Origin: Candidatus Falkowbacteria bacterium
GTDB taxonomy: Bacteria; Patescibacteriota; Patescibacteriia; Patescibacteriales; UBA12465
Assembly: GCA_037134915.1 (NCBI GenBank)
Contig: JBAXLJ010000005.1
Span: forward strand, 1-39,553
Direction: 5' to 3'
Length of the DNA: 39,553 nt
Shown here: one piece after another, positions 8,990 to 28,878 of the stretch
How the letters are laid out: every line of letters begins with the position of its first letter
Numbering within the stretch: position 1 is the stretch's first letter
The notes under the pieces: model-generated
What the model was told of the DNA's origin: nothing
Databases searched by the model: none
The model's input: the letters and a program-made list of their open reading frames with translations, nothing else
Translations under genes and position numbers: made by a program

Positions 8990-10114
8990 ATGGATACTTC
9001 GCTTATCTTTTTATTCGTCCTGGTCTTAGCCGGCTTAGCAATCGTTATTTTTATCTTGCTCAAGAAAAAAGATGCCGGAGAGGATAAATTAGCACCGTTT
9101 ATGGAACGGCTAGTCATTCAGTCGGAGCAACTTAATCAGTTAAATCGTCAAAATTCAGAGCTTCGTCAAGAATTAGACCATAAACTGTCAGAAACGCATC
9201 GAGCTAGCCAGGGGCAATTTGAGCAGACACAGCGGACCATTCAAAATATTACCGGTCAATCGGCTAAGCTGATTGCTGAGGTTACTGAGAAATTAACTAA
9301 GTTAGATGAAACTAATAAACAGGTGGTGAATTTTTCAGCGCAACTGCAGAGTTTACAAGATATTTTAAAAAATCCAAAGCAGCGTGGAGTCCTGGGAGAA
9401 TATTATTTGGAGGAAACTTTAAAAAACGTTTTGCCGCCCAAGTCTTATGAAATGCAGTATAAAATGGGTAAAGATGAAAAGACTGGCAAAGATTTAATTG
9501 TGGACGCGGTGGTGTTTGTTAAAGATAAAATCATTCCAATTGATGCCAAGTTCTCTTTAGAAAATTATGAGCGCTTACTTAATTGTTCAGACACTGAAAC
9601 TCGTAAAAAATTAGAAATTGCTTTTAAAACTGATTTGAAAAATCGAATCGACGAAACCTCAAAATATGTGATGCCTAACTTCGGTACACTAGAATTTGCT
9701 TTCATGTTTATTCCGTCAGAGTCTATCTATTATGATTTATTAGTTGGCAGTGTCGGTGGCGTTAAAGTAAATAGCCGTGATTTGATTGAATATGCTTTTC
9801 GTGAAAAGAAAGTTATTATAATTTCGCCAACTTCATTTTTGGCTTATTTACAGACGGTTTTACAAGGTTTAAAGGCGATGCAAATTGAAGAAAAAGCGAT
9901 TGAGATAAAACAAAATGTTGAGAAATTAGGTAGACATATCGTTTCTTACGATGACTTTTTACAGAAAATGGGTAACAGCTTAGCGACGACGGTTAACCAT
10001 TATAATAATGCTTCGGCGGAATTTAAAAAAATTGATAAAGACGTCATTAAAATTACGGGCGGAGTTAGCGAGGTTGAGGTTATTAAAATTGATCGACCAA
10101 AAAATGATGAATAA
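8990..10114 (+). CDS. rmuC: DNA recombination protein RmuC
   Basis: N-terminal TM anchor plus coiled coil, then RmuC core motifs GVLGEYYLEETL, DAVVFV..IPIDAKFSLENY and FMFIPSESIYYDL. Confidence 0.88.
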   Translation: MDTSLIFLFVLVLAGLAIVIFILLKKKDAGEDKLAPFMERLVIQSEQLNQLNRQNSELRQELDHKLSETHRASQGQFEQTQRTIQNITGQSAKLIAEVTEKLTKLDETNKQVVNFSAQLQSLQDILKNPKQRGVLGEYYLEETLKNVLPPKSYEMQYKMGKDEKTGKDLIVDAVVFVKDKIIPIDAKFSLENYERLLNCSDTETRKKLEIAFKTDLKNRIDETSKYVMPNFGTLEFAFMFIPSESIYYDLLVGSVGGVKVNSRDLIEYAFREKKVIIISPTSFLAYLQTVLQGLKAMQIEEKAIEIKQNVEKLGRHIVSYDDFLQKMGNSLATTVNHYNNASAEFKKIDKDVIKITGGVSEVEVIKIDRPKNDE

Positions 10115-11048
10115 TAATTACAAAGCCAATGCTCTCGAGCTTCGTGAAGCCGTTATGGAAACGCTTGTCTTTTTTGATCTTTTTAATTACCCCCTAACTC
10201 ATTGGGAGATTTGGCAGAATTTAAAATTTGAATCCAATTTGAATATTTTAGAAGATATTATAAATGAGCTCGTGGTTGAAAAAAATATTTATCAAAAAGA
10301 AGGCTTTTGTTTTTTGCCTGGCAGGGAGGATCTAATTGAAATTAGACGGGCACGTTATAATTATGCCAATTATAAAATTAAATTGGCGCGCCGTGCTTCA
10401 AGATTATTTAGGTTACTGCCAAGTGTAAAATTAGTCGCTGTTTCTAATTTAATTGGTCATCATAATTTGCGTAATGAAAGTGATATTGATATCTTTGTGG
10501 TTTCCTCGCCTCACCGCCTCTGGTTGACACGTTTATATTGCACGGGGTTAATGAAAATTATGAATAAACGCCCGACTAAGCAGTATAAACAGAATAAAAT
10601 TTGTTTGAGTTTTTATGTCAGTGTTGATGGACTATGCATGGAATCGTTACGCTTTAAACCAGACGATCCTTATTTTGATCACTGGTTTCTGGGTCTTTAT
10701 CCGATTTATGATGAGGATAGATATCTAGCTTATCTACGGTTTAAAAATCCTTGGCTAAAAAATTCTTTCCCTAATAGTTTGTTACTTAAGGAAAAGTTTC
10801 CAGATAATTATTGGCAGCGCACTTTGCTCGAAAAGATATTTTTCTGTGTCGGTGACTGGCTGGATTTTGTAGCTAAAAAAATTCAGATCGCGATTATGCC
10901 CTTAACTTTAAAAAATTTAGCTAAAAAAGAGTCAGGGGTAGTGATTACTGATTCTGTTTTACGTTTTTATTTAAACGATCGCCGAGCCGAATTCCATCAA
11001 AAATATTATGACCACTTAGCTAACTTTAAAGTTTATGAACCAAAATAA
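10104..11048 (+). CDS. Hypothetical protein with a possible Pol-beta-type nucleotidyltransferase motif
   Basis: ATG 10104 overlaps the rmuC stop by 11 nt. The track start at 10008 would lie about 100 nt inside rmuC. VAVSNLIGHHNLRNESDIDIFVV fits the hG[GS]-x(9-13)-DhD NTase pattern only loosely. Confidence 0.55.
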   Translation: MMNNNYKANALELREAVMETLVFFDLFNYPLTHWEIWQNLKFESNLNILEDIINELVVEKNIYQKEGFCFLPGREDLIEIRRARYNYANYKIKLARRASRLFRLLPSVKLVAVSNLIGHHNLRNESDIDIFVVSSPHRLWLTRLYCTGLMKIMNKRPTKQYKQNKICLSFYVSVDGLCMESLRFKPDDPYFDHWFLGLYPIYDEDRYLAYLRFKNPWLKNSFPNSLLLKEKFPDNYWQRTLLEKIFFCVGDWLDFVAKKIQIAIMPLTLKNLAKKESGVVITDSVLRFYLNDRRAEFHQKYYDHLANFKVYEPK

Positions 11049-12460: not shown

Positions 12461-13096
12461 ATGAAAACGGAAAGTTCTGTTGTCGACAAGAGAAAGCTTT
12501 CCGATGAAGAAATTGGTAAATTATTTAAAAAAACTACCGAGATTATTCGTCGGATAAGCGAGGGGACTATTTTATACGAAGATTCTATCGAGATTCTTCA
12601 AAAAATAGTTATTGAAAAAACCCCCAATGAACATAAGCTTTATCTGGGGACAGCCAGGGGCACCCATCAAATTAAAGAAATTGAACACGAGGTTAATTGT
12701 GATGAGTCTCCGATGGTTATCCAGTATTGGAAAGTAGTTAATCATAAAAAAAGAGGCTTATTTAAGTTTAAACTTTCAAAGCTTTCTTTATTTAAATTTA
12801 AAAAACTATCTGGGGAAAACGAGGTCCAGTATGGTTTAAGGAAGGAGTCTATGAATACTTTGTTTTTGAACGCCAATGTTTTAGATTATTTATTGGCACA
12901 CCCTCATCTTATTCCTAATGAATGGGTGACTGAAAAAAAGATTGTTTTTCGAGGGACCGCTTATTATAATCATGATGAAGGAATCTGTTTTCGGGCACTA
13001 TCTTGGGACAGCCTAAAAGGATCTTGGGGTTGGTGTTGGATATTTTGCGCCCCCTATAATGAGGGGAAAGTAGCCGCAATTGCTGTTGCCGTTTAA
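12461..13096 (+). CDS. Hypothetical protein (211 aa), orphan
   Basis: Clean ORF followed 7 nt later by a strong terminator. It contains a lysine-rich low-complexity stretch KFKLSKLSLFKFKKLS and a Trp/Cys-rich C-terminus (SWGWCWIFCAPY). No family recognised. Confidence 0.6.
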   Translation: MKTESSVVDKRKLSDEEIGKLFKKTTEIIRRISEGTILYEDSIEILQKIVIEKTPNEHKLYLGTARGTHQIKEIEHEVNCDESPMVIQYWKVVNHKKRGLFKFKLSKLSLFKFKKLSGENEVQYGLRKESMNTLFLNANVLDYLLAHPHLIPNEWVTEKKIVFRGTAYYNHDEGICFRALSWDSLKGSWGWCWIFCAPYNEGKVAAIAVAV

Positions 13097-13411: not shown

Positions 13412-14155
13412 CTATTTTAAAGGCACACTAATAAATTTATTACCGGCAATAATTAGATGATCTAAAACGTCGATGCCAAGAACTTTTCCGGCTTCAACTA
13501 AATTAGCGGTTACTTCTAAATCGGCAGGCGTTACTTTTAAGGATCCTGATGGATGGTTGTGGGCAATAATGACGGCTACGGCGCTATATTCAAAGGCGGG
13601 CTTAAAAACTTCTCGAGGGTGGACCAAACTAGAAGTTAGACTGCCAACGGAAATTACTTCGTCATGAACTAGTTGATAGCGGCTATTTAAATATAAGCCA
13701 CGGAAATTTTCTTTGCCTAAATCGCCCATTTCTTTGAGGTGCTCAAAGGCTTGTTTGGCACTTCTAATAGTGACTGATCCATGAGGTTTTTTTAAAAAGA
13801 AACGGCGACCCAGTTCAAAGCAAGCCACGATTTGGCAAGCTTTTACTATTGGCACCTTAAGTTCCTTGGATAATTTTTCCGGATTAGACTGGCTGATAAT
13901 TGCTTTTTCGCCATATTCTTTTAACAGGCGGGAACTGAGCTCTAAAACTCCCTCTTTTTTGTCACCCGTGTTTAAAATAATGGCCAGTAGTTCGGCGGAA
14001 GATAGTTCGCTGGCGCCGCGGCTGATCATTTTTTCTCGAGGTTTGTCGGTGGTTGGCAGGTCTTTAACGCGCAAGACATATTTCTTATCACCACTCAAGA
14101 TAAGATCGTGATCGTTAATTTTGTAAGTCGCCATAGATAAAGAAGTTAGGGCCAT
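13412..14155 (-). CDS. radC: RadC-like JAB-domain protein (UPF0758)
   Basis: N-terminal helix-hairpin-helix-like region (LSSAELLAIIL), and a C-terminal JAB/MPN metalloprotease motif (REVFKPAFEYSAVAVIIAHNHPSG). Confidence 0.9.
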   Translation of the reverse strand: MALTSLSMATYKINDHDLILSGDKKYVLRVKDLPTTDKPREKMISRGASELSSAELLAIILNTGDKKEGVLELSSRLLKEYGEKAIISQSNPEKLSKELKVPIVKACQIVACFELGRRFFLKKPHGSVTIRSAKQAFEHLKEMGDLGKENFRGLYLNSRYQLVHDEVISVGSLTSSLVHPREVFKPAFEYSAVAVIIAHNHPSGSLKVTPADLEVTANLVEAGKVLGIDVLDHLIIAGNKFISVPLK

Positions 14156-14233
14156 AAGTAAATAAGTCTGGCTAGTTCCAATTATAGCAGACTTGTGATA
14201 AATTTAAAGTATAAAACTTATAATACAAATCAT

Positions 14234-15508
14234 ATGAAACAGTATAATATTAATACTTTAGATAATAAATTAGCTTATATTAGCGCGCCTCTGGCGGGCA
14301 CGAAAACTATTACCGTTTTAGTTGTTATTAAAACTGGCTCTAAATATGAAAGTCGCCGAGAAAGCGGCTTGTCTCACTTTTTAGAGCACATGTTTTTTAA
14401 GGGGACGATAAAGCGCCCCACCGCCCTAGCTTTAGCCTCAGAACTTGATAGTGTTGGCGGTGAGTATAACGCCTTTACTTCCAAAGAGTATACGGGGTAT
14501 TGGATAAAAGTTTCTTCAGAGAAAACAGAAATTGCTTTAGAGTTAGTTTCTGACATGTTGCTTAATTCTACTTTTCCGGCCGAAGAAATCGAACGAGAGA
14601 AAGGCACAATCATCGAAGAACTTAATATGTATGAAGACAACCCTTTGATGAAGATTGAAGATGTTTTTGAGACCTGTCTTTATGGCGATACCCCGGCTGG
14701 TTGGGATACTATTGGGACAATCTCTAATATTAAAGCCTTTAAGCGTCAGGATTTTATTAAGTATTTCGAGCGCCAATACGGCACCAAAAGCTCGACTTTA
14801 ATTGTAGCTGGTAATTTACCAAAAAATACTAATAACTTAGTTAAAAAATATTTTTCGCCTTTTACTAAGAATGCCTGGAAAGATAAGGTTAAGGTCAGGG
14901 AAAATCAAAAAACACCAGCACTTTTAAAGGTGGTTAAAAAAACCGATCAAGTGACTTTATCTTTAGGTGTCAGAACCTCAGCCATCGGTCATAAGGATGA
15001 ATTTATTATTAAGCTACTGGCGATTATTTTAGGTGGTTCAATGAGTTCTAGATTGTTTAGTGAGATTAGAGAGCGTCGCGGACTCGCTTATTCTGTCAGA
15101 ACGGGAACGGAATTTTATTCTGATTCCGGTTATTTAACTACAACTACCGGTATTAAATTAAATCATGAAGAAGAGGTGGTTAATTTAATTATTGATGCTT
15201 ATAAAAAAGTATCGACTGAGCTTGTTCCTGAAGAAGAATTAATTCGCGCCAAAGACATGCTCAAAGGACGTCTGGCCATTTCACTTGAGGCGTCAGATGA
15301 TTTAGCTAATTGGTACGGGCGGCAAGCGATTTTGCGCAAGAAATATATTACCCCAGAAGACTATGCTGAAGAAATTAATAAGATTACGGCCGCTGATTTA
15401 CGTCGTATCGCCAAAAAAATATTTGTCGAACATAATTTAAACTTAGCTTTAATTGGACCAATTGATGTTAAAAAGGAAGCTGTTTTAAGAAAAGCCTTAA
15501 AATTATAA
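14234..15508 (+). CDS. M16-family (pitrilysin/insulinase-like) zinc peptidase
   Basis: Inverted zinc motif HxxEH in GLSHFLEHMFFKGT, with the downstream E (EREKGTIIEE). ATG 14234 is preferred over the track's GTG 14195. Confidence 0.88.
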   Translation: MKQYNINTLDNKLAYISAPLAGTKTITVLVVIKTGSKYESRRESGLSHFLEHMFFKGTIKRPTALALASELDSVGGEYNAFTSKEYTGYWIKVSSEKTEIALELVSDMLLNSTFPAEEIEREKGTIIEELNMYEDNPLMKIEDVFETCLYGDTPAGWDTIGTISNIKAFKRQDFIKYFERQYGTKSSTLIVAGNLPKNTNNLVKKYFSPFTKNAWKDKVKVRENQKTPALLKVVKKTDQVTLSLGVRTSAIGHKDEFIIKLLAIILGGSMSSRLFSEIRERRGLAYSVRTGTEFYSDSGYLTTTTGIKLNHEEEVVNLIIDAYKKVSTELVPEEELIRAKDMLKGRLAISLEASDDLANWYGRQAILRKKYITPEDYAEEINKITAADLRRIAKKIFVEHNLNLALIGPIDVKKEAVLRKALKL

Positions 15509-15527
15509 ACCTGTGGTTGAGGACTTA

Positions 15528-18500
15528 ATGCAAAAATTAAATAGTCGTCAAAAAGAAGCCGTCACTCATGAATCCGGCCCGCTTTTAATTGTGGCTGGCG
15601 CGGGAACTGGAAAAACAACGGTGTTAATTAATCGTTTAGCGCATTTAGTTTTAGATAAAGGGCTATCTACTGAAGAAATCTTACTGCTTACTTTTACTGA
15701 AAAATCCGCTAGTGAATTAGAAGCTCGCGCTGACACCTTGCTGCCGTATGGCTACGTTGATTTGTGGATTCATACTTTTCACGGTTTTTGTGAACGTATT
15801 TTGCGTGAACACGCTTTAGATATTGGACTAGCCGCTGATTTTAAATTAATTTCGGCTACCGAACAATGGATTTTGATTAAGAAAAATCTAGCTCGTTTTG
15901 ATTTAGATTATTATAAGCCACTGGGCAATCCAACTAAGTTTATCTCGGAATTACTACGCCACTTTTCTCGTCTTAAAGATGAAGATGTCTCGGCTTTAGA
16001 TTATCTAGAAACAGCGTCTAAAAATATAGATGAAGATGAGCTGGAAGTAAAACGCTTAAAGGAACTAGCAACCGCTTATCAAACTTACAATGAACTATTA
16101 CTCGAAAATAATTTTTTAGATTTTGGCGACTTAATTGTCTTTACTCTTAAACTATTTAAAACTAGACCTAATATTTTAAGTGCTTATCAAAAGCAGTTTA
16201 AACATATTATGGTCGATGAATTTCAAGATACCAATTGGGCGCAGTATGAGTTAATTAAAATGTTAGCGCTACCAAGCAATAACTTAACTGTTGTTGGTGA
16301 TGATGACCAGTGTTTATCTGGTGACGCTTTAATTTCAACTAGAGGAAAATCAAAGAAAATAAAGGATATAAAAATTGGCGATGAAGTGACTACGGCTGTT
16401 GGTAAAGGTTATTTAAGTTATAGTCCAGTTGAATATATAAATAAAACCAAAAAGAAATGTCGCCTGATAACTTTTAAATTGAAATCTGGAAAGAAAATAA
16501 CCGTAACTGATAATCATAAACTTTTTGCTTTTACACCTCGTATTTCTATTAAGAAATATTACTACGTTTATTTGATGTTTAAACAAGAACTCGGTTGGCG
16601 CATGGGTATGACCAATGATTTAGCGACTCGTTTAAGATTAGAGCGAGGGGCTGATAGCATTATGCCCGTTGGCTGTTTTGATTCTTTAGAAGAAGCTAGA
16701 TTTAATGAAGAACTTTTATCTTTAAGATATGGAATTCCAATCTCTTGTTTTATGGAGCGTGACGGCATCATGGACAAGAAAATTTGGTCAGAAAGATTAT
16801 ATAAAGAACTTAAAGTTGATGACGGTGTTAGATTATTATCTCAAGATAAAAATTTAGATTTGAATTATCCGCCATATATTTTGCAAGGCGTTAAATGTGG
16901 TGGTAAATCCAGGATTATTATTGGTTTAGAAATGTGTTGCCGCAGTTATCGTTCTAAATATGATAAAAATGGTTTTTTAGATCATCCACAAATTTTCCAC
17001 TCACTAAGTCTAGAAACTAGCGATGCTAAAGTAATTGCTAAACTTAAAAAATTAAATTTATCAGTTACTGCCGCTAAAAAAGGTAAGCGAGTTAGAATTA
17101 CTAGCACTGATTTAGCTTATTTGGGCGCCGTGGCTAAAAAAATCCAACATGAAGTCGGTGGCTTTATTGAGGTAAAAATGAATATTGCCACCAATAAAGA
17201 AAAATATCTAAAGTCTTTAGTTATTCCTGCTAAAAATATTTTTCCTGGCATGTCACTACCAGTAATGTCCGACAAAGGTTTGGTATACGAAGAAATAATT
17301 AGCCGCAGTGAAAAAGAAAAAATAGAAACTGTTTATGATTTAGAAATCGCGCGCACCCATAATTTCATCGCCGATGGTATTGCGGTTCACAATTCAATCT
17401 ACAAATTCCGGGGCGCTTCAATTTCGAACATCATGCAGTTTAAAGATGACTACAAAGACGCCAAAGAATTAGTGCTCGTCGATAATTATCGTTCTCGCCA
17501 GGAAATTTTAGATTATTCTTATGAGTTTATTAAACATAATAACCCTAATCGCTTAGAAGAAAAATTACATATTGATAAGCAACTTAAATCAGGGGCTAAT
17601 TTTGAAACTAAAGAAGCGGCCGCGGTTAGATACTTACAATTTAATCGTGGCGAGGAAGAAGTTGGTTTTGTCTCTTCCCAAATTGCTGATTTATATCAGC
17701 AGAAAAAAGGTCAGTGGTTGGACTTTGCAATTTTAGTGCGCGCCAATGATACCGCTGATGCTTATGTTAAGGAATTAACACGACTAGGAATTCCAAATCA
17801 ATTCGTGTCGCTCAAAGGTTTGTATTTTAAAGATATTATTTTAGATTGTTTAGCTTATCTTAGACTTCTAGATAATTATCATGAATCATCAGCTTTATTT
17901 CGCGTGCTTAACATGCCTAATTTTAAAGTTAGTCATTTAGATATTATTACGATTAATAAATTTGCGAAGCATAAAGTCTGGTCATTGTTTGAAGCCTTAA
18001 AAAATATTTCGGCTATTCCTAATGTCTCTGAAACGGGTCGAAATAATATCGATAAACTACTTGAACTATTAGATAAACACTCTAAATTAGTTGCTGACTC
18101 TGAACCATCCAAAATATTTTTACGCTTTGCTTACGACTCAGGACTCGTGGCTTCTTATGATTTTGACCGTGATCAAGAAATTTTTTCTTATCTTAATCAG
18201 TTCTACCAAAAAATAAAAAAGTTTGAAGATACACTACCTGCCTCACGTCTAAATGACTTCATGCAACTGATGGATTTAGAACTTGAAGCTGGAGAAGTGG
18301 GGGCCCTGCGTTTAGATTTTTCTGATAATGACACCGTGAAAATTATGACGGTTCACGCCGCTAAAGGTTTAGAATTTAAATATGTCTTTTTAGTAAACAT
18401 AGTAGACAAAAAGTTTCCAACTATTTCGCGTTCTGAGAAAATTAGTATCCCTGATAATTTAGTTAAAGAAAAAATTGTTAGCAGTAAGGATGCTCATATT

Positions 18501-19499
18501 GAAGAGGAACGTCGTTTATTCTACGTGGCCATTACCAGAGCTAAAGAAGAATTATTTATTACGGGCGCCAAAGATTACGGCGGCGCTCGTGAGAAAAAAC
18601 CATCGGCTTTTATTGCTGAGATGGGACTTAATATTTTTGAAGTAGGCGCTGATGAAAATTTTTCTAATAAATTAGAATTAGTTCGCGACCTTGAAAGACT
18701 GGATCAAAAAGATCCTGAAAAACCAGAAAAATTAGTACTGCCTGATAAATTTTCTTTCTCGCAGTTAGCGGCTTTTTCAACTTGTCCGTTGCAGTATAAG
18801 TTTGCGTTTGTGCTTAAAATTCCGGCACCATCAGATAAAGCTTCTTTAATTTTTGGTCGTGTCTTGCATAATGTTTTGCATGACTTCTTAGAACCACTAG
18901 AATCTAGCGATTTACAAGATTCTTTGTTTGGTAAAAAAGAAGTTAAGTTAGACGAAGAAAAACTTTTGGAATTATATGAAGAACGGTGGCAAGCTGATGG
19001 TTATGGTAGCAAAGAGGAACGCGAAAAATATTATCAGAAAGGAAAAAAGATTTTGAAAACTTTCTGGGCTAATTTAGCCGCCGAAGAGTTTCCTGAAATT
19101 TTATTCTTAGAAAAAAACTTCACCTTTAAAATTGGTGACGGTGTTATTAAAGGTGCTATCGATAGAGTAGATAGATTAACTGACGGCACCTTAGAAATTA
19201 TTGATTATAAAACTGGTAATCCGAAAGAAAAATTAGAATATGCCGATAAGCGCCAGTTAATTTTATATAAAATATTTTTGGAAGAATTTTTAAAGATAAA
19301 AGTTTCTAAATTAAGTTACTATTATTTAGAAGGTACTTATAAAACTTCTTTTGAGGCTAAAGATAAGGATGTTGAAAAATTAAGATTAGAGGTTTTAGAA
19401 GAGATTGCGGAAATTAAAAAAGGTAATTTTCCTCCTAACCCAAGCGAGCTTTGTAAATATTGTGACTTCCGTGATATCTGTCAGTGGCGTTATAAATAA
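15528..19499 (+). CDS. UvrD/PcrA-type SF1 helicase fused to a C-terminal PD-(D/E)XK Fe-S (AddB/Cas4-like) nuclease; interrupted by an intein
   Basis: Q-motif/Walker A (LNSRQKEAV...VAGAGTGKTT), motif II (VDEFQDTN), a split motif III (VVGDDDQ / SIYKFRGA), and motifs V-VI (TVHAAKGLEFKYVF, EEERRLFYVAITRAKE). The nuclease domain has CPLQYKF, IDRVDR, EIIDYKTG and CKYCDFRDIC. ATG 15528 is preferred over GTG 15513. Confidence 0.92.
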   Translation: MQKLNSRQKEAVTHESGPLLIVAGAGTGKTTVLINRLAHLVLDKGLSTEEILLLTFTEKSASELEARADTLLPYGYVDLWIHTFHGFCERILREHALDIGLAADFKLISATEQWILIKKNLARFDLDYYKPLGNPTKFISELLRHFSRLKDEDVSALDYLETASKNIDEDELEVKRLKELATAYQTYNELLLENNFLDFGDLIVFTLKLFKTRPNILSAYQKQFKHIMVDEFQDTNWAQYELIKMLALPSNNLTVVGDDDQCLSGDALISTRGKSKKIKDIKIGDEVTTAVGKGYLSYSPVEYINKTKKKCRLITFKLKSGKKITVTDNHKLFAFTPRISIKKYYYVYLMFKQELGWRMGMTNDLATRLRLERGADSIMPVGCFDSLEEARFNEELLSLRYGIPISCFMERDGIMDKKIWSERLYKELKVDDGVRLLSQDKNLDLNYPPYILQGVKCGGKSRIIIGLEMCCRSYRSKYDKNGFLDHPQIFHSLSLETSDAKVIAKLKKLNLSVTAAKKGKRVRITSTDLAYLGAVAKKIQHEVGGFIEVKMNIATNKEKYLKSLVIPAKNIFPGMSLPVMSDKGLVYEEIISRSEKEKIETVYDLEIARTHNFIADGIAVHNSIYKFRGASISNIMQFKDDYKDAKELVLVDNYRSRQEILDYSYEFIKHNNPNRLEEKLHIDKQLKSGANFETKEAAAVRYLQFNRGEEEVGFVSSQIADLYQQKKGQWLDFAILVRANDTADAYVKELTRLGIPNQFVSLKGLYFKDIILDCLAYLRLLDNYHESSALFRVLNMPNFKVSHLDIITINKFAKHKVWSLFEALKNISAIPNVSETGRNNIDKLLELLDKHSKLVADSEPSKIFLRFAYDSGLVASYDFDRDQEIFSYLNQFYQKIKKFEDTLPASRLNDFMQLMDLELEAGEVGALRLDFSDNDTVKIMTVHAAKGLEFKYVFLVNIVDKKFPTISRSEKISIPDNLVKEKIVSSKDAHIEEERRLFYVAITRAKEELFITGAKDYGGAREKKPSAFIAEMGLNIFEVGADENFSNKLELVRDLERLDQKDPEKPEKLVLPDKFSFSQLAAFSTCPLQYKFAFVLKIPAPSDKASLIFGRVLHNVLHDFLEPLESSDLQDSLFGKKEVKLDEEKLLELYEERWQADGYGSKEEREKYYQKGKKILKTFWANLAAEEFPEILFLEKNFTFKIGDGVIKGAIDRVDRLTDGTLEIIDYKTGNPKEKLEYADKRQLILYKIFLEEFLKIKVSKLSYYYLEGTYKTSFEAKDKDVEKLRLEVLEEIAEIKKGNFPPNPSELCKYCDFRDICQWRYK
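16311..17393 (+). mobile_element. Intein (361 aa) inserted in helicase motif III
   Basis: The conserved VGDDDQSIYxFRGA motif is split. The insert begins CLSGDALI (block A, Cys1), has VTDNHKLF (block B, TxxH), and ends ETVYDLEIARTHNFIADGIAVHN (blocks F/G, terminal His-Asn) followed by Ser+1. It is in frame and 1083 nt long. Confidence 0.9.
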
Positions 19500-19503
19500 T
19501 TAT

Positions 19504-20166
19504 ATGAATTTATCCTGGTTTAAAATTCGTTATTTCTTTTACATGGCTATTCTTGGCTTATGGTTTATTTGGTTTGCTAACATCAAGGTGATGTCTGGCG
19601 CTAGTTATATTGCGATTGATTGTGATAAAGATATTAGTAATTATCCAATAGGGATTGTTTTAGGAGCCAGAGTGGTTGGCGCTAAGGTAATTGACGGTGT
19701 TTATGCCGATAGATTACAAACCGGAGTTAATCTTTATAATAAAAAGAAGATTACTAAAATTTTAGTTTCCGGCGATCATGGTCAAGTAAATTATGATGAA
19801 GTAAATGCCGGTAAAAAGTATTTATTAGATCACGGTGTGTCGGCTAATGACATTTTTTTAGATCACGCTGGATTTGATACTTACGATTCTATTTACCGAG
19901 CTAAAAATATTTTTAAGGTAGATCGAGCCCTAGTTATTACTCAAGACTTTCATTTGCCTCGCGCTCTATATTTTAGCCACGAACTAAATATTGATGCTCT
20001 GGGCTGTTCAGCTGATCTACACCAATACACCGAGATAAATAAAATGAAACAACGGGAAATTTTAGCCAGGGTTAAAGCTTGGCTGAGTATTGCTTTTGCG
20101 GTTAATCCTCGATATGCTGGAGAAACTTATGATATTAGCGGCGACGGTGAACAAACTTGGGACTAA
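19504..20166 (+). CDS. SanA/YdcF-like DUF218 membrane-anchored protein
   Basis: N-terminal TM helix (FFYMAILGLWFIWFA), then ILVSGDHG..YDEVNAGKKYL...IFLDHAGFDTYDSIYRAK...ALVITQDFHLPRALY, typical of the SanA/DUF218 family. ATG 19504 lies 5 nt after the helicase stop; the track start at 19405 would overlap the helicase. Confidence 0.75.
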   Translation: MNLSWFKIRYFFYMAILGLWFIWFANIKVMSGASYIAIDCDKDISNYPIGIVLGARVVGAKVIDGVYADRLQTGVNLYNKKKITKILVSGDHGQVNYDEVNAGKKYLLDHGVSANDIFLDHAGFDTYDSIYRAKNIFKVDRALVITQDFHLPRALYFSHELNIDALGCSADLHQYTEINKMKQREILARVKAWLSIAFAVNPRYAGETYDISGDGEQTWD

Positions 20167-20184
20167 GTCGCTACTTATAATTTT

Positions 20185-21192
20185 ATGGAAAAAGAAAAAA
20201 GAATCATTGATCCAAAAGGACAGGGCGACGAAGAGTCTTTTGATTTTTCTCTGCGCCCTAAAACTTTGAGCGAATATATCGGACAGAACAAGGTTAAGTC
20301 TAACTTGGAGATTGCTATTTCGGCTGCCAAGAAAAGACAAGAGCCAATTGAACACGTCTTGCTCTATGGTGCTCCTGGTTTAGGAAAAACTACTTTAGCC
20401 CACGTTATTGCCAATGAAATCGGTGCGCATATTAAAGTCACTTCCGGACCGGCGATTGAAAAAAGTGGTGATTTAGCGGCCATCCTTTCTAATTTAGAAG
20501 AGGGCGATCTTTTATTTATTGATGAAATTCATAGATTAAATAAAAATATTGAAGAGATTTTATATCCCGCTATGGAAGATTTTGCCTTAGATATTATTAT
20601 GGGCAAGGGGCCGAGCGCTCGAACTCTGCGCTTAGATTTGCCTCACTTTACGATTATTGGCGCCACGACGATGGCTAGTTTGCTCTCGGCGCCACTGCGC
20701 GATCGTTTTGGGCATATTCATCATTTGGATTTTTACGAACTCGAAGACATTGAGCGCATTATTAGGCGTAGCGCTAAATTATTAAACATCGAATTGGATT
20801 CCAAGGCTGCCACTTTAATTGCTAGCCGCTCTAGAAAAACACCAAGAATTGCTAATCGTCTGCTTAAACGAGTGCGTGATTATTGCCAAGTTAAAGGTGA
20901 TGGCTATATTGATCTAAAGGTTTGTGAAGAGGCATTTAAAATGATGGAAGTAGATGATTTAGGTTTAGACCATGTTGATCGAAAATTACTCATAACTATT
21001 ATTAAGAAATTTAAAGGCGGCCCCGTCGGACTTAATACTTTATCGGCGGCTACTGGTGAAGATATTGACACAATTCTTAACGTTTACGAGCCATATCTGT
21101 TGCAACTTGGTTTTTTAGATCGTTCGCCACGCGGCCGTTTAGTTACGGAAACCGCTTATAAGCACTTAGGTTTAGATTTTGTAGCTAAATAA
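20185..21192 (+). CDS. ruvB: Holliday junction branch-migration helicase RuvB
   Basis: [12 protein letters not shown], Walker [14 protein letters not shown], Walker [10 protein letters not shown], sensor region TIIGATT and RDRFG. Confidence 0.96.
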
Positions 21193-26155: not shown

Positions 26156-28849
26156 ATGAAAAATCCAGCTTCTTTTTTTAGGAAATTTGGTCTGCCTATT
26201 TTGGCATTTTTGGCCAGTTTTTTGTTATTCAAAATCGCTTTAGCAGCTGGTGATGTTAACGTGGGAATTGCCCCGGTAGATAGCAGTATTATTCTGAGTA
26301 ACAGTTCGCCTATTGTTATTATTGGTCGCATAATTCAAGTACTTCTGGGACTATTATCGGTTATTGCTATTAGTATTGTAATTTATGCCGGTTACTTATG
26401 GATGACTTCCATGGGTAGTGAAGATAAAATTAAGGAGGCGCAAAGATTATTAAAAAATGCGACCATTGGCATTATTATTATTTTGTCAGCTTGGGGGATT
26501 GTTTTATTTGTCTTATCAAAGTTAGTTGGTGTGACCACCGGTAATATTTCCAGTGACCAAACAACTAATAATTTTAAGAATTTAAGTTTAGGAGCTTTGG
26601 GTTCTTGTTCAGTGGAAACTGTTTATCCGCAGCCCGGTAGCAAAGAAGTGGCTCGTAATACTTCTATTTTAATTACTGTTAAAGAGCCTTTGCAGTTGGA
26701 CACAGTTTGTATCAATAAAAATACTAAAGCCGCTTGCGCTTGCGACAATACCTCTAATTGTAATCTAATCAATCCTAAGAATATTCAAATATATAAAACT
26801 TCTGATGGTAATTCTTGCGTTTCCGGCAATTGTTCGACTAATGTTTCGGACGTCGAAGTGTCCGTGCCGACTGGCAATAAAACTTTAGTTTTAAGACCAC
26901 TAAGTTATTTAGGAAATTCCAGTGGTAACGTCGAGTATGGAGTCCATCTAACTAACGATATTAAAAAAAATGGTGGGCAAGCTTTATTTTCTACTTGTTC
27001 TTCAGATTTTTTGGAATGGATTTTTGAAACTAGCAGTAATCTAGATTTAGAACCACCTCAAGTTTTGGCCTCGGGAATCTTTCCTCCAGTAGATAGTGCC
27101 GCTGATACTATTTCTTCTAATTCAGTGGCTAAGGCTGCTCAAGCTCAAATAGTTGTCACCGGCTGTCCGCAAACTTATTTGCCGGCCAGATTAATTAGCG
27201 TCCAGAAAACTGGGAACTCTTCTGATGCAGCCGTGACAGTTGATCCTAATTATTCTGGGGCGATTACTAATTTTACCATCGACTTGTCGGAAAGCGTCAA
27301 TAAGATGCGTTTATTTAGTGGTAGTAATTTATTAGGAGCCAGTGATGTAGTTAATAATCAGGCGACTTTTACTGGTTACTTTACGGTTAGCATTACTAAA
27401 GCGACCCAAGGTGATTCTTGGAATGTGGTTGTTAGCCCAGCTCAAGCAGCTGAAAATTTAAGCGTCGGCTCTAATTCCTATATTTTTGTCAGTACAAAAA
27501 CTAATAGTGGTAATGAAATTTTAGTTCCTAGTTCTTGCTCTCCGGCGGAAATGGCGGCCAACATCTCTATTGCCTTAAGCGGTAATAGTGATGTGGTTAC
27601 TACTGCTTCTGGTGGAACCCTAACGCTCTTTGCTAAGACAGCTGGGGTGGCGGGAAATAGCCTAACCCTGTCATCTAATGGGCAAGGTTTGTTTTTACAA
27701 AAGTTTGCTGGTGGAGCGGAGAAATCCGATACTTATACAATTGTAGGGCTTCAGGATAAACCGATGAATTCAATTATTCAAGTTAACTTTAATGAGGCGG
27801 TTAACCCCATGACTTTATCTGGTTCGGCCGATGAGGTTAAATCTTATATTCAGCTGGTTAATGCTAATAAGGTAGCGAGAACAAGTGGTCAGGCTTGTAG
27901 CTTGAATAGTGACTGCCTATCATATAACTGCCAAGCCTCGGCTTGCGTGGGTAATTATGTTGGCGGAAAATTTGTACTCAGTAATGTTTATAAAACTTTG
28001 GAATTTATCTCTGATAAGGAATGTGGCGTTAATAGTTGTGGGGAAATTATGTATTGTTTGCCGGCCAGCAGCCATTTATCACTTAAAATAAATGCGGCAA
28101 CTTTAAAGGCTTGCAGCACTTCTTCTGATTGTCAGGCTTTTGCGCCTTATTCAACCTGTACTTCTGGCATTTGTCGCGACACCGCTAATAATGTTAATTA
28201 TCCGATGGCGGACACTTTAAATTTAAATGGCGTCGTTGATCTAGCTTTTAATTCTTTGGACGGTAATCGTGATAAGAAGGCCGATGGTCCAGTTCTAACT
28301 GTTTATCCTTATTTTGTGGAGGGAGAAGCTAATTTAGACAAACGGGATGGTTTTGAATTTTCATTTTTTATTAGTAATCAAATCAATTCAACCCCACCAA
28401 CCATTTCTTTAACTTCACCTCGGCTTTTAGAAACTGGAGTTAGAGTTACTAATCCGGTAGTGATTGATTTTAATGATTTGATGATGAATAGCACCTTAAG
28501 GACGGGGAGCGCGGATATTAATAATGGTTTAGTAAACGCCAATCATAAACTGCTTAATTTACGCAGTTCCAGCAATAATCCTTTAGGTTATTGGATTGAA
28601 AGCGACAATAAGGAGCGAGGGGTTCCCAATGGTGAGCCAGATTATACTTCTTCGCGAATTATGCATTCGGATTTTTTTGAATCAGTTACTTATGTTTCAC
28701 AAATCGGTTCGGGTGTAAAAAACATTTATCAAAATTGTTTTAAACCTAGTGTCGGACCAGCTTGTTTAAGTTTAAGCGAATCAAACCCCTCCTGCTGTTT
28801 TGGTTCACCGACTAATGCTTTAGACTCTAACGGTAATTGTGTTAATTAA
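26156..28849 (+). CDS. Large Cys-containing surface protein (897 aa) with an N-terminal T4SS-pilin-like (TrbC/VirB2-type) two-helix module and Ig-like (Big_5/SbsA-like) segments
   Basis: Signal-like N-terminus, then a hydrophobic helix / WMTS-x-G-SE-x-KI / hydrophobic helix hairpin (residues about 55-125). Downstream come VETVYPQPGSKEVARNTSILITVKEPL and IIQVNFNEAVNPMTLSG (Big_5-like) and Cys clusters (CSLNSDCLSYNCQASAC). Confidence 0.85.
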   Translation: MKNPASFFRKFGLPILAFLASFLLFKIALAAGDVNVGIAPVDSSIILSNSSPIVIIGRIIQVLLGLLSVIAISIVIYAGYLWMTSMGSEDKIKEAQRLLKNATIGIIIILSAWGIVLFVLSKLVGVTTGNISSDQTTNNFKNLSLGALGSCSVETVYPQPGSKEVARNTSILITVKEPLQLDTVCINKNTKAACACDNTSNCNLINPKNIQIYKTSDGNSCVSGNCSTNVSDVEVSVPTGNKTLVLRPLSYLGNSSGNVEYGVHLTNDIKKNGGQALFSTCSSDFLEWIFETSSNLDLEPPQVLASGIFPPVDSAADTISSNSVAKAAQAQIVVTGCPQTYLPARLISVQKTGNSSDAAVTVDPNYSGAITNFTIDLSESVNKMRLFSGSNLLGASDVVNNQATFTGYFTVSITKATQGDSWNVVVSPAQAAENLSVGSNSYIFVSTKTNSGNEILVPSSCSPAEMAANISIALSGNSDVVTTASGGTLTLFAKTAGVAGNSLTLSSNGQGLFLQKFAGGAEKSDTYTIVGLQDKPMNSIIQVNFNEAVNPMTLSGSADEVKSYIQLVNANKVARTSGQACSLNSDCLSYNCQASACVGNYVGGKFVLSNVYKTLEFISDKECGVNSCGEIMYCLPASSHLSLKINAATLKACSTSSDCQAFAPYSTCTSGICRDTANNVNYPMADTLNLNGVVDLAFNSLDGNRDKKADGPVLTVYPYFVEGEANLDKRDGFEFSFFISNQINSTPPTISLTSPRLLETGVRVTNPVVIDFNDLMMNSTLRTGSADINNGLVNANHKLLNLRSSSNNPLGYWIESDNKERGVPNGEPDYTSSRIMHSDFFESVTYVSQIGSGVKNIYQNCFKPSVGPACLSLSESNPSCCFGSPTNALDSNGNCVN

Positions 28850-28878
28850 TTTTTTTGACGATAATACCAGATATAAAT

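What the first reader, a model, noticed from the sequence alone, without database searches (positions are those of the whole stretch)
16311..17393. Intein splits helicase motif III of a UvrD/PcrA-type helicase-nuclease
The near-universal SF1 motif III, VGDDDQSIYxFRGA, appears as ...LTVVGDDDQ + 361 aa + SIYKFRGASI.... The insert has every hallmark of a class 1 intein: Cys1 (CLSGDALI), block B TxxH (VTDNHKLF), block F/G (VYDLEIARTHNFIADGIAVHN) with terminal His-Asn, and a Ser at the +1 extein position. The Gln just before the insertion is part of the nucleotide-binding network in PcrA/UvrD, so the helicase should be inactive until it is spliced. The insertion is in frame and is the only mobile-element-like sequence in the window.
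Basis: partly seen in the sequence, partly recalled or inferred. Interest (0 to 1): 0.7.

Follow-up and report, generated by a model that had tools for sequence, protein, structure and literature searches.

The report
Helicase intein carrying GIY-YIG-like nuclease
A self-splicing protein insert (intein) does interrupt the ATP-site motif of a DNA-repair helicase in this ultra-small (Patescibacteria-type) bacterium; in place of the usual LAGLIDADG or HNH homing nuclease it carries a conserved nuclease-like module that matches no curated family and most resembles a GIY-YIG enzyme.

Summary
Window 16311-17393 encodes a 361-aa class 1 intein inserted between Gln and Ser of SF1 motif III (DDDQ|SIY) in a 1328-aa UvrD/PcrA-type helicase fused to a Cas4-like PD-(D/E)XK nuclease. 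Curated intein models score above threshold, the Hint fold is recovered, and the spliced extein aligns without a gap to PcrA (Q254|S255). The site is already occupied by a known relative, the annotated intein of Bacillus phage SPO1 helicase gp34.33, so the intein itself is a new member of a known kind.

They match no Pfam, NCBIfam, PHROG or PDB sequence and contain no LAGLIDADG or HNH domain. They form a large family (591 clusters at 50% identity), almost always inside inteins at this helicase site. A confident model (pLDDT 90) shows two parts: a beta-beta-alpha-beta-alpha subdomain whose structural neighbours are phage GIY-YIG nucleases, and a beta-beta-alpha-beta-beta-alpha-beta subdomain that may bind DNA. 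Invariant Tyr/Arg/Arg/Glu/Glu follow I-TevI spacing. dN/dS is about 0.05, like the helicase.

Best reading: an in-frame GIY-YIG-like homing endonuclease. The papers I could search say this is unknown for inteins. GIY-YIG membership is unproven, and no activity has been tested.

The parts
15513..19499 (+). Host gene: precursor of a UvrD/PcrA-type SF1 helicase fused to a C-terminal Cas4/AddB-like PD-(D/E)XK nuclease (1328 aa with the intein, 967 aa spliced)
   Evidence: Pfam UvrD-helicase 4.3e-73, UvrD_C 1.2e-50, PDDEXK_1 7.5e-38. TIGR00372 cas4 scores 65.7 against a cut-off of 65. PcrA 1pjr E 1.4e-92.
15513..16310 (+). N-extein (266 aa), ending in motif III ...VVGDDDQ; the last residue aligns with PcrA Q254
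16311..17393 (+). Class 1 intein, 361 aa (Cys1 ... His360-Asn361)
   Evidence: The AF2 model's Hint part matches the Mtu RecA mini-intein 2in9/3ifj, TM 0.80 on the target.
16311..16538 (+). N-terminal half of the Hint splicing domain: block A (CLSGDALI) and block B (T66-D-N-H69)
   Evidence: TIGR01445 covers residues 1-72. T66, D67, N68, H69 are invariant in A1 and T66/H69 are 46/46.
16560..16847 (+). GIY-YIG-like putative nuclease subdomain (intein residues 84-179; beta-beta-alpha-beta-alpha plus two helices). Candidate catalytic residues: Y87, R97, R107, E111, E133.
   Evidence: AF2 model pLDDT 89.8. BFVD structural neighbours are GIY-YIG proteins. Sub-threshold Pfam GIY-YIG-clan hits in 8 of 39 family members. 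Invariant residues. dN/dS 0.053.
16917..17180 (+). Second subdomain of the insert (intein residues 203-290; beta-beta-alpha-beta-beta-alpha-beta). Putative DNA-binding module; R260 is nearly invariant.
   Evidence: AF2 model. Only weak fold matches: MotA DNA-binding domain prob 0.77, SUI1/eIF1-like, BMC shell proteins. Absent from the SPO1 and Javan558 relatives. dN/dS 0.073.
17217..17393 (+). C-terminal half of the Hint domain: blocks F/G (VYDLEIARTHNFIADGIAVHN)
   Evidence: TIGR01443. PDB sequence matches to the PhoCDC21-1, Pho RadA and Ssp DnaB inteins over residues 305-361.
17394..19499 (+). C-extein, starting with the +1 Ser of SIYKFRGA: rest of motif III, helicase domains 2A/2B, and the PD-(D/E)XK nuclease (about 18750-19484)
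16287..16310 (+). Upstream half of the putative homing site. The intein-less target would be ...GTTGTTGGTGATGATGACCAG|TCAATCTACAAATTCCGGGGCGCT..., with the downstream half at 17394-17417.
   Evidence: An intein-less allele in L085 reads GTAGTGGGTGATGATGATCAG|TCTATCTATAAGTTTAGAGGAGCT. The consensus of 58 intein-bearing loci is conserved at codon positions 1-2. Inference only; cleavage has not been tested.

Best explanation
This is a bifunctional class 1 intein of the 'SF1-helicase motif III' allele, the same site as in the phage SPO1 gp34.33 helicase. It sits in the chromosomal UvrD-type helicase-nuclease gene of a Patescibacteria (CPR) bacterium.

Supported by sequence and predicted structure: the Hint domain is intact and has every splicing residue. 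After translation, Cys1 should attack its own peptide bond, the +1 Ser should take over the N-extein, Asn361 should cyclise, and the restored DDDQ-SIY motif III should give an active helicase.

Inferred: until then, the Gln that contacts ATP is separated from the rest of motif III by 361 residues, so the precursor is probably inactive.

The 225 residues inserted in the Hint domain are neither LAGLIDADG nor HNH. They form two subdomains. The first is a beta-beta-alpha-beta-alpha unit with invariant Tyr87, Arg97, Arg107, Glu111 and Glu133, most like a GIY-YIG nuclease in which the second Tyr is replaced by Arg. The second is a beta-beta-alpha-beta-beta-alpha-beta unit that I take to be the DNA-binding part.

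Inferred mechanism: the excised intein, or the precursor, binds the very conserved motif III coding sequence of an intein-less allele and cuts it. Recombinational repair from the intein-bearing copy then copies the intein in, bringing the Ser codon at +1 with it. Recurrent homing, together with mostly vertical descent, keeps the whole element under purifying selection. Lineages where homing stops lose the nuclease or the whole intein.
For: Intein:
- Curated models score above their cut-offs.
- The Hint fold is recovered by Foldseek, TM 0.80 to the Mtu RecA mini-intein.
- The junction is seamless against PcrA/UvrD.
- Splicing residues are 46/46 conserved.
- The C-extein has dN/dS 0.02, so the host protein is still needed and must therefore be spliced.

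The interior is a real, selected domain:
- The alignment-based AF2 model has pLDDT 89.8 and pTM 0.74, and its secondary structure agrees with the independent whole-intein model.
- dN/dS is 0.053 (N-subdomain) and 0.073 (C-subdomain) against 0.055/0.023 for the exteins.
- An exhaustive profile search finds 591 clusters at 50% identity (278 at E<=1e-10). Of 160 domain hits among the best 150 proteins, 124 lie downstream of a motif III Gln (GDxxQ|C), and the listed C-termini mostly read HN|[S/C]IYxFRGA.

Nuclease-like character:
- Seven residues are invariant across 39-42 sequences at <47% identity: Y13, M15, R23, G25, R33, E59, P69. E37 is nearly invariant.
- The spacing Y-x9-R-x9-R-x3-E...E parallels I-TevI Y6-x10-Y17-x9-R27-x3-H31...E75 (I-TevI sequence verified).
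- After three homologous phage proteins, the BFVD fold neighbours are dominated by GIY-YIG proteins: Mycobacterium phage Yoshi GIY-YIG E 1.1e-3 prob 1.00, Pithovirus group I intron GIY-YIG endonuclease, NUMOD3 protein, GrpIintron_endo, T5orf172, MUG113.
- The commonest weak Pfam hits among members are GIY-YIG (4), T5orf172 (3) and MUG113 (1).
- hhalign puts YVY on GIY, RIG on YIG and R33 on R27.

Behaviour of a mobile module:
- The same N-subdomain sits in inteins at other sites and in another host protein: after helicase motif II and in motif V of giant helicases, and in an adenine methyltransferase of S. suis prophages, HMM E 4.6e-21.
- Intein-less orthologues are common at every level of divergence: 115 of the 120 best extein hits, up to 67% identity.
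- Decay products exist: L070 is a 165-aa mini-intein at the same site, and L067 lacks the GIY-like part.
- Some host pairs have inteins much more alike than their exteins, e.g. L055/L059 at 74% against 54%.
Against: - No activity has been measured for splicing or for cleavage.
- GIY-YIG membership fails at the sequence level. The window protein has no Pfam hit, family members hit only below threshold, a family profile finds nothing in PDB sequences, and hhalign against a 13-sequence I-TevI-type profile gives P 0.012 and probability 3.5%.
- Foldseek against solved structures gives nothing significant. The best matches are LAGLIDADG meganucleases at E 0.02 and TM 0.2; the GIY-YIG-family protein 1zg2 reaches only E 0.21.
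- The canonical second Tyr (YIG) is Arg in every member, and no counterpart of the conserved Asn was identified.
- Intein and extein identities track each other (r 0.68; 91/94, 81/84, 66/67%). This fits long vertical co-inheritance at least as well as frequent homing.
Confidence: 0.6

Rival explanations
1. Domesticated or regulatory intein. The element is no longer mobile. It is kept because conditional splicing at the ATP-site Gln works as a post-translational switch for the helicase-nuclease, and the inner module has been retained for a host purpose such as DNA binding or damage sensing, not for homing.
For: dN/dS of the whole intein equals that of the helicase. Intein and extein divergence are correlated and nearly 1:1 relative to the window. 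Length is uniform at 359-377 aa in about 57 species. Novikova et al. 2016 (PMC4760082) argue that clustering of inteins in ATPase motifs points to function beyond parasitism.
Against: Close orthologues without the intein are abundant, so the host does not need it. Mini and partly deleted derivatives occur. The same nuclease module appears in unrelated host genes and at other sites, which is the behaviour of a mobile module. Some pairs show intein identity well above extein identity.
Confidence: 0.15
2. The inner module is not a nuclease. It is a non-catalytic DNA-binding or structural domain, or a dead endonuclease. The GIY-YIG resemblance is only a shared small alpha/beta topology.
For: There is no significant sequence or solved-structure match to any nuclease. 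The YIG tyrosine is missing in all members. The beta-beta-alpha-beta-alpha topology is simple and could recur by convergence.
Against: The invariant residues are Tyr, two Arg and two Glu in one subdomain, with I-TevI-like spacing. That is an active-site-like set, not a structural core. Purifying selection is strong. Multiple GIY-YIG-clan signals come from two independent methods. Sporadic distribution with intein-less alleles is hard to maintain without a homing activity.
Confidence: 0.2
3. The inner module is an extremely diverged LAGLIDADG-type endonuclease, the usual intein partner.
For: The top nine Foldseek PDB matches are monomeric LAGLIDADG meganucleases (I-OnuI, I-SmaMI, I-LtrI, I-PnoMI) aligned over about 260 columns. 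The C-subdomain has a beta-beta-alpha-beta-beta-alpha unit like a LAGLIDADG half-site.
Against: Those matches have E 0.02-0.05, probability about 0.2, TM about 0.2 and rmsd 15-18 A. There is no LAGLIDADG Pfam hit in the window protein, and none appears among the 25 families most often matched by the 39 members. All invariant polar residues lie in the N-subdomain, which lacks the leading LAGLIDADG helix.
Confidence: 0.04
4. A conserved non-splicing insertion domain of this helicase lineage.
For: None found.
Against: All splicing residues are conserved 46/46. Hint models score above their cut-offs. Orthologues lacking the block are contiguous. The insert would separate the motif III Gln from the rest of the motif.
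Confidence: 0.01

Closest known systems
Intein of Bacillus phage SPO1 DNA helicase gp34.33 (and phage CampHawk UvrD helicase intein, PMC3868849)
   Same: Identical insertion point: LVGDDDQ|CQPAGE...LVTHN|SMYSFRGA. Class 1 residues. Homologous inner N-subdomain (AVYLM...FRVG...RNQKADKAWVL...EEASLMES...YGIATIPF), family HMM E 1.5e-18. Annotated as an intein in RefSeq NC_011421.
   Different: The SPO1 intein is 275 aa and lacks the second (beta-beta-alpha-beta-beta-alpha-beta) subdomain. Its host is a phage helicase of 978 aa, not a CPR chromosomal helicase-nuclease. I found no paper that discusses its inner domain.
UvrD/PcrA inteins catalogued by Novikova et al. 2016 (PMC4760082)
   Same: [quoted passage not shown]
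   Different: No CPR/Patescibacteria cases are listed. The main text gives no insertion site or endonuclease type for UvrD. The supplements were not available to me.
Bifunctional LAGLIDADG inteins (PI-SceI, PI-PfuI, Mtu RecA intein)
   Same: Same architecture: a Hint splicing domain interrupted after block B by an in-frame endonuclease/DNA-binding insert. Same presumed homing life cycle. The Hint part superposes.
   Different: The insert is not LAGLIDADG by sequence, and the fold match is only spurious.
I-TevI and other GIY-YIG homing endonucleases
   Same: Predicted beta-beta-alpha-beta-alpha catalytic fold. Tyr in strand 1. Arg about 10 residues after the strand 2 motif. An acidic residue in helix 2. 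A bipartite layout of catalytic domain plus separate DNA-binding domain. Structural neighbours in BFVD.
   Different: Known GIY-YIG homing enzymes are intron-encoded or free-standing, not in-frame intein domains (PMC1564403, PMC2677866). Here YIG is RIG and the His is Glu, no NUMOD or helix-turn-helix DNA-binding region was detected, and no sequence-level significance was reached.
'Fractured genes': split inteins with a free-standing GIY-YIG or Vsr-like endonuclease gene between the halves (Dassa et al. 2009, PMC2677866)
   Same: An association of a GIY-YIG-type nuclease with an intein locus, in DNA-metabolism genes including helicases. Those authors proposed this as a route by which inteins could acquire new endonuclease types.
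   Different: There the nuclease is a separate ORF and the intein is split. Here it is one continuous reading frame and a cis-splicing intein.

Membership tests
Intein (Hint superfamily), class 1 | N-terminal nucleophile Cys/Ser at position 1 (block A) | tested here: met
   Cys1 in CLSGDALI; Cys in 46/46 complete relatives
Intein (Hint superfamily), class 1 | Block B TxxH | tested here: met
   T66-D-N-H69; T66 and H69 are 46/46; T66, D67, N68, H69 are invariant in A1
Intein (Hint superfamily), class 1 | Blocks F/G ending in His-Asn, followed by a Ser/Thr/Cys +1 extein residue | tested here: met
   VYDLEIARTHNFIADGIAVHN|S. H360 and N361 are 46/46. +1 is Ser in all loci with a readable junction, and Ser or Cys across the wider family. 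Intein-less alleles have Ala or Ser.
Intein (Hint superfamily), class 1 | Curated profile matches above threshold, and Hint fold | tested here: met
   PF14890 54.7 bits against 35.8; PF01079 34.2 against 29.7; TIGR01445 and TIGR01443 above cut-off. Foldseek TM 0.80 to the Mtu RecA mini-intein.
Intein (Hint superfamily), class 1 | In-frame insertion whose removal restores a contiguous host protein | tested here: met
   Gapless alignment across the junction to PcrA 1pjr and UvrD 4c2u. 115 intein-less orthologues read DDDQ[A/S]IY.
Intein (Hint superfamily), class 1 | Protein splicing actually occurs | not testable with these tools
   Needs expression plus western blot or mass spectrometry. Indirect support only: the C-extein is under strong purifying selection.
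SF1-helicase motif III intein allele (SPO1 gp34.33 type) | Insertion directly after the motif III Gln, and homologous intein sequence | tested here: met
   SPO1: GDDDQ|C...THN|SMYSFRGA. E. coli phage ESCO32 helicase: GDEFQ|C...SHN|CIYQFRGS. N-subdomain HMM E 1.5e-18 and 5.1e-28.
GIY-YIG nuclease superfamily | About 90-100-aa alpha/beta fold with a three-stranded sheet in the order beta1-beta2-alpha1-beta3-alpha2 | tested here: inconclusive
   The predicted topology fits. BFVD neighbours named GIY-YIG reach E 1e-3 to 8e-2, probability up to 1.0. Against solved structures only 1zg2 appears, at E 0.21. This is a predicted, not an experimental, structure.
GIY-YIG nuclease superfamily | Tyr of the 'GIY' motif in strand 1 | tested here: met
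   Y87 (YVYLM) is invariant in 39-42 diverse members and 46/46 CPR inteins. hhalign puts it on I-TevI Y6.
GIY-YIG nuclease superfamily | Tyr of the 'YIG' motif in strand 2 | tested here: not met
   The position is an invariant Arg (R97, 'wRIG') in all members.
GIY-YIG nuclease superfamily | Conserved Arg in helix 1 about 10 residues after YIG | tested here: met
   R107 is invariant. It aligns with I-TevI R27.
GIY-YIG nuclease superfamily | Metal-binding Glu in a later helix, and a conserved Asn | tested here: inconclusive
   E133 is invariant and lies in helix 2, but hhalign did not align it to E75 reliably. No conserved Asn was identified.
GIY-YIG nuclease superfamily | Significant match to a curated family model (PF01541 or clan members) | tested here: not met
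   No hit for the window protein. 8 of 39 family members hit GIY-YIG, T5orf172 or MUG113 only at E 0.03-1. hhalign probability 3.5%.
LAGLIDADG / HNH intein endonucleases | LAGLIDADG or HNH motif and profile match | tested here: not met
   No such Pfam, NCBIfam or PHROG hit for the window protein. Neither is among the families most often matched by the 39 members. The LAGLIDADG fold matches have TM about 0.2.

The most novel reading that the evidence does not exclude
The inner module is the first recognised in-frame, intein-borne GIY-YIG-type homing endonuclease, or else a nuclease fold not yet described. On this reading it is a widespread (at least 591 clusters at 50% identity) and actively selected enzyme family specialised on the motif III codons of SF1 helicases, able to move to other intein sites and hosts (helicase motifs II and V, adenine methyltransferase), and also existing as free-standing Hint-nuclease genes. 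It would add a new endonuclease class to inteins and a new natural scaffold that recognises a near-universal helicase sequence.
Probability: 0.4. Interest if true: 0.7.

Novelty: new variant of a known kind. Interest (0 to 1): 0.5.

Why it matters
The intein itself is ordinary. Inteins in UvrD-type helicases are catalogued, and this exact site is annotated in phage SPO1.

What matters is the interior. The papers I could read describe in-frame intein endonucleases only as LAGLIDADG or HNH, and say that GIY-YIG enzymes are not found in inteins (PMC1564403; PMC2677866). If the module is an active GIY-YIG-like nuclease, three things follow.
- The modular 'splicing domain plus any nuclease' picture of intein evolution gains a widespread natural example.
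- It supplies the end-product predicted by the fractured-gene model.
- It offers a compact nuclease that targets one of the most conserved coding sequences in bacteria.

The equal selective constraint on intein and helicase across CPR lineages also bears on a long-running question: are inteins in ATPase motifs pure parasites, or have they become regulators? This family has many intein-bearing and intein-free orthologues, so it could be used to test that.

Tried and rejected
- Pfam, NCBIfam and PHROG scans of the inner 242 and 115 residues found nothing usable. PUL and phrog_3635 hits at E about 0.01 were treated as noise.
- Sequence searches of the PDB found only Hint-part matches for the intein and nothing for a 42-sequence profile of the inner domain.
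- Foldseek of the whole-intein model was dominated by Hint domains and said nothing about the insert.
- Foldseek of the insert against the PDB gave no match at E<=0.001. I considered and rejected the LAGLIDADG lead (TM 0.2).
- hhalign of the family profile against I-TevI alone gave 0.2% probability. Against a 13-sequence I-TevI-like alignment built from annotated phage genes it gave 3.5%. The register was suggestive but the score was not significant.
- The search for homologous proteins with I-TevI returned only 9 near-identical fragments, which was useless for building a profile.
- The first word-index search with the intein found just 8 fragments and under-reported the family. The genome scan and the exhaustive HMM search corrected this.
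- The cluster look-up gave no organism names for distant members.
- The supplements of Novikova et al. are not held.
- GC content of the intein (0.30-0.35) is not distinguishable from the host gene, so composition says nothing about recent transfer.
Full report

Yes, exactly as described. The window holds one long ORF, 15513..19499 on the + strand, encoding 1328 aa. Translation across the reported coordinates reads NLTVVGDDDQ|CLSGDALI ... VTDNHKLF ... VYDLEIARTHNFIADGIAVHN|SIYKFRGASI. A script places the insert at 16311-17393, 361 codons, in frame.

The host protein scores as follows:
- Pfam UvrD-helicase, E 4.3e-73
- UvrD_C, E 1.2e-50
- C-terminal PD-(D/E)XK nuclease, E 7.5e-38
- NCBIfam Cas4 model, 65.7 bits, which just reaches its cut-off of 65

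The insert scores above the curated cut-offs of four intein models: Pfam Intein_splicing (54.7 against 35.8 bits), Hint (34.2 against 29.7), NCBIfam intein_Nterm and intein_Cterm.

With the 361 residues removed, the protein aligns to G. stearothermophilus PcrA (E 1.4e-92) and D. radiodurans UvrD with no gap at the junction. Counting along that alignment puts the insertion between PcrA Q254 and S255, inside motif III.

An AlphaFold model of the whole intein is mediocre overall (pLDDT 65), but its Hint part matches solved mini-inteins, with TM 0.80 to the Mtu RecA splicing domain.

**2. Surroundings**

The window is an ordinary chromosomal stretch of a low-GC bacterium (GC about 0.30-0.40 across 14000-20500). 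It encodes GyrA (no intein), NDK, RmuC, RadC, an M16 peptidase, the helicase, a DUF218 protein, RuvB, QueA, signal peptidase, HisRS, RelA/SpoT, and giant surface proteins with T4SS-pilin-like N-termini.

The nearest relatives of the helicase and its intein are metagenome-assembled genomes of Patescibacteria/CPR. Intein GC is not distinguishable from that of the host gene. I found no second intein signature, transposase or integrase. Four ORFs have no Pfam match, so 'the only mobile element' is only partly verified.

**3. Relatives of the intein**

A scan of one genome per species found 70 loci. In 59 of them the intein's C-terminal junction could be read, and 57 carry a complete intein of 359-377 aa at the same DDDQ|C ... 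HN|S position, in helicase-nuclease genes whose full-length reading frames run about 1310-1650 aa. The hosts are mostly CPR groups: Falkowbacteria, Nealsonbacteria, Buchananbacteria, Paceibacterota, Saccharibacteria, Komeilibacteria and others. A few are Rokubacteria, Elusimicrobiota, Aerophobetes and Omnitrophota.

In the 46 complete copies that I aligned, Cys1, Thr66, His69, His360 and Asn361 are invariant. Every readable junction has Ser at +1.

Orthologues without the intein are plentiful. Of the 120 best matches to the spliced junction region, 115 read DDDQ[A/S]IY contiguously, the closest at 67% identity. That is as close as some intein-bearing relatives, for example L004 and L005 at 67% extein identity. 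The distribution is therefore sporadic.

The intein-less alleles often have Ala at +1, which could not support splicing. Intein-bearing alleles always have Ser or Cys.

**4. The site is already known**

A tblastn search of deposited phage genomes shows that the Bacillus phage SPO1 helicase gp34.33 has an intein at exactly this point: LVGDDDQ|CQPAGE...LVTHN|SMYSFRGA. RefSeq annotates it as an 'apparent intein' of 275 aa. Phage CampHawk is reported to have the same (PMC3868849).

E. coli phage ESCO32 helicase also carries one, GDEFQ|C...SHN|CIYQFRGS, annotated only as 'DNA helicase'. Novikova et al. 2016 list 16 UvrD inteins in five bacterial phyla (PMC4760082).

As an intein, then, this is a new member of a known kind.

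**5. What is inside the intein?**

Intein residues 77-302 match nothing in Pfam, NCBIfam or PHROGs and no PDB sequence, even when searched as a profile. There is no LAGLIDADG or HNH domain.

The region is nonetheless a real, widespread domain. An exhaustive HMMER search of 1.84 billion representative proteins with a 7-sequence profile found 591 proteins at E<=1e-3, 278 at E<=1e-10 and 33 at E<=1e-30. I located 160 domain hits among the best 150 proteins:
- 124 lie downstream of a motif III Gln of some SF1 helicase (GDxxQ|C). The listed C-termini mostly read HN|[S/C]IYxFRGA.
- 3 follow motif II (DEAQDLNK|C...HN|CQH), and a fourth, left unclassified by the script, reads the same way (P0131, VDE|CVSG).
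- 1 lies in motif V of a giant helicase that carries three such inteins.
- 18 are N-terminally truncated and the rest are unclassified.

The N-terminal part of the module also sits in an intein of an adenine methyltransferase of Streptococcus suis prophages (HEP|C...THN|CLYGWK; HMM E 4.6e-21). At least one free-standing 362-aa gene has both Hint halves and the module but no Cys1 and no exteins.

**6. Structure of the module**

With a 39-sequence alignment, the module folds confidently (pLDDT 89.8, pTM 0.74), and the secondary structure agrees with the earlier whole-intein model. It has two subdomains:
- Intein residues 84-179 form beta-beta-alpha-beta-alpha followed by two helices.
- Intein residues 203-290 form beta-beta-alpha-beta-beta-alpha-beta.

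All seven invariant residues (Y87, M89, R97, G99, R107, E133, P143) and three of the four nearly invariant ones (E111, Y140, F147) lie in the first subdomain. R260 is the one nearly invariant residue in the second.

**7. Is the first subdomain GIY-YIG?**

Evidence for:
- The topology is that of the GIY-YIG catalytic domain.
- The spacing Y87-x9-R97-x9-R107-x3-E111...E133 mirrors I-TevI Y6-x10-Y17-x9-R27-x3-H31...E75. I checked the I-TevI sequence against PDB 1mk0/1ln0.
- Foldseek against predicted viral structures returns three large homologous phage proteins (a 924-aa protein with no name in the tables at hand, a DNA 3'-5' helicase and an adenine methyltransferase) and then a run of GIY-YIG-superfamily proteins. 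These include Mycobacterium phage Yoshi GIY-YIG (E 1.1e-3, probability 1.00), a Pithovirus group I intron GIY-YIG endonuclease, a NUMOD3 protein, GrpIintron_endo, T5orf172 and MUG113.
- When each of 39 family members is scanned against Pfam, the commonest weak hits are GIY-YIG (4), T5orf172 (3) and MUG113 (1). I know all three, from memory, as members of the same Pfam clan.
- hhalign against a 13-sequence I-TevI-type alignment puts YVY on GIY, RIG on YIG and R107 on R27.

Evidence against:
- None of the sequence comparisons is significant. hhalign gives P 0.012 and probability 3.5%, against P 0.28 for the C-subdomain control.
- Foldseek against solved structures finds nothing below E 0.02. The top hits are LAGLIDADG meganucleases with TM 0.2 and rmsd about 17 A, which I regard as spurious. 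The GIY-YIG-family protein 1zg2 appears only at E 0.21.
- The diagnostic second Tyr is Arg in every member, and I could not identify the conserved Asn.

My position: the module works like, and probably descends from, a GIY-YIG nuclease (about 55-60%). Membership in the family is not established.

The second subdomain has only weak fold matches (MotA DNA-binding domain, SUI1/eIF1-like, BMC shell proteins). It is missing from the SPO1 and prophage methyltransferase inteins. By analogy with bipartite GIY-YIG homing enzymes I take it to be a DNA-binding domain. That is inference.

**8. Selection and mobility**

Between the window and its closest relative L001 (dS about 0.6-1.5), dN/dS is:

| Region | dN/dS |
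|---|---|
| GIY-like subdomain | 0.053 |
| Second subdomain | 0.073 |
| Hint halves | 0.060 and 0.034 |
| Exteins | 0.055 and 0.023 |

Comparisons with L002 and L003 give similar values. The whole intein, nuclease module included, is therefore as constrained as the helicase.

Intein and extein identities to the window run nearly 1:1, from 91/94% down to 38/38%. Over 1035 pairs they correlate with r 0.68. This points to largely vertical co-descent.

There are also signs of a homing cycle:
- Some pairs have inteins far more alike than their exteins (L055/L059 74% against 54%; L007/L011 66% against 47%).
- Intein-free orthologues are abundant.
- One copy is a 165-aa mini-intein at the same site that has lost the module (L070). 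Another has lost the GIY-like half (L067). One to three copies carry substitutions at each candidate catalytic residue while keeping all splicing residues.

The presumed target, the spliced junction GT.GT.GG.GA.GATGA.CA.|TC.AT.TA....TT..G.GG.GC, is conserved at first and second codon positions in 58 loci and in an intein-free allele.

**9. Mechanism**

Supported by sequence, profiles and predicted structure: an intact class 1 intein in frame in motif III, carrying a conserved two-part insert.

Inferred from established intein chemistry:
- N-S acyl shift at Cys1
- transesterification to Ser+1
- Asn361 cyclisation
- O-N shift restoring DDDQ-SIY

Inferred from PcrA mutagenesis, which I recall (Dillingham et al. 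1999): the precursor should be uncoupled or inactive, because Q254 links ATP hydrolysis to unwinding.

Inferred from the anatomy and the distribution: the insert is a homing endonuclease that cuts intein-less motif III DNA and is copied in by recombinational repair.

The rivals are a domesticated regulatory intein (0.15), a non-catalytic insert (0.20), a diverged LAGLIDADG (0.04) and a non-splicing insertion (0.01). Each is set out with its refuting experiment in the Rival explanations section.

**10. Novelty**

The papers I could search state that GIY-YIG enzymes occur in group I introns and as free-standing genes but not in inteins (PMC1564403). [quoted passage not shown] I found nothing on the inner domain of the SPO1 or UvrD inteins.

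My verdict is that the intein is a new member of a known allele, and its endonuclease module makes it a new variant of a known kind. Two caveats apply. The GIY-YIG assignment rests on a predicted structure and sub-threshold signals. Subscription literature and InBase could not be searched.

Noticed in passing
L087:577-1665 (protein P0068, ENA contig k141_251276): A free-standing 362-aa gene has both Hint halves and the same nuclease module but no Cys1. It ends ...VVSN followed by two stop codons, and no helicase extein is visible in any frame of the 2-kb contig. It looks like a stand-alone descendant of this intein family, comparable to yeast HO. P0054, P0062, P0075, P0116 and P0142 may be similar, or may be fragments.
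   Followed up: partly
P0091, P0093, P0111, P0131 (giant 1872-2536-aa helicases from metagenomes): Single helicases carry two or three inteins with this module: one after motif II (DEAQDLNK|C...SHN|CQH), one at motif III, and in P0131 a third in motif V (GTCH|C...VVHN|STKG). P0039, P0050 and P0085 combine it with a different, longer intein in the P-loop.
   Followed up: partly
L083:1454-3565 (Streptococcus phage Javan558, annotated 'adenine-specific methyltransferase'; 15 S. suis prophage records): A ParB-like/N6-adenine methyltransferase is interrupted at WQHEP|C...IVTHN|CLYGWK by an unannotated intein of about 290 aa that carries the same GIY-like subdomain without the second subdomain. Various records annotate it as methylase, ParB-like nuclease or hypothetical protein.
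   Followed up: partly
L084:1571-4345 (Escherichia phage vB_EcoM_ESCO32 'DNA helicase'); H41 Klebsiella phage KP13-16 'hypothetical protein': Cultured coliphage and Klebsiella phage records hold full-length relatives of this intein that are not annotated as inteins. I confirmed the ESCO32 junctions; I did not inspect KP13-16.
   Followed up: partly
P0168-P0287 compared with L001-L070: Intein-free orthologues frequently have Ala at the +1 position (DDDQAIY), while every intein-bearing allele has Ser or Cys. Homing into an Ala allele would need co-conversion of the +1 codon.
   Followed up: partly
window 18750-19484: The helicase ends in a PD-(D/E)XK nuclease that just reaches the NCBIfam Cas4 cut-off (65.7 against 65). 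It has Cys residues near both ends of the domain (FSTCPLQY ... CKYCDFRDIC), which suggests an AddB/Cas4-type iron-sulfur cluster. This single-chain helicase-nuclease layout is shared by the CPR relatives.
   Followed up: no
window 26156-28849, 28855-35298, and about 35.3 kb to the window end: Three consecutive giant ORFs (897 aa, 2147 aa, and more than 1413 aa running off the window). The first two have an N-terminal T4SS_pilin-like domain followed by Big_5, and the 2147-aa one also TIG and fn3 repeats. They are probably CPR cell-surface or attachment proteins.
   Followed up: no
window 111-2825, 2993-4012, 10008-11048, 12461-13096: Four ORFs (904, 339, 346 and 211 aa) have no Pfam match at E<=1e-3. 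The 346-aa ORF overlaps the RmuC gene (8990-10114) by about 100 nt.
   Followed up: no
L001, L004, L005, L009, L012-L015 and others: Many MAG records titled 'uncultured Gammaproteobacteria bacterium' (and one 'Clostridia', one 'Pseudomonadales') carry helicase-intein genes up to 91/94% identical to this CPR-type window. The record titles look like taxonomic mislabels.
   Followed up: no
window 19405-20166: The listed TTG start of the DUF218 ORF overlaps the last 95 nt of the helicase gene. The true start is probably further downstream.
   Followed up: no
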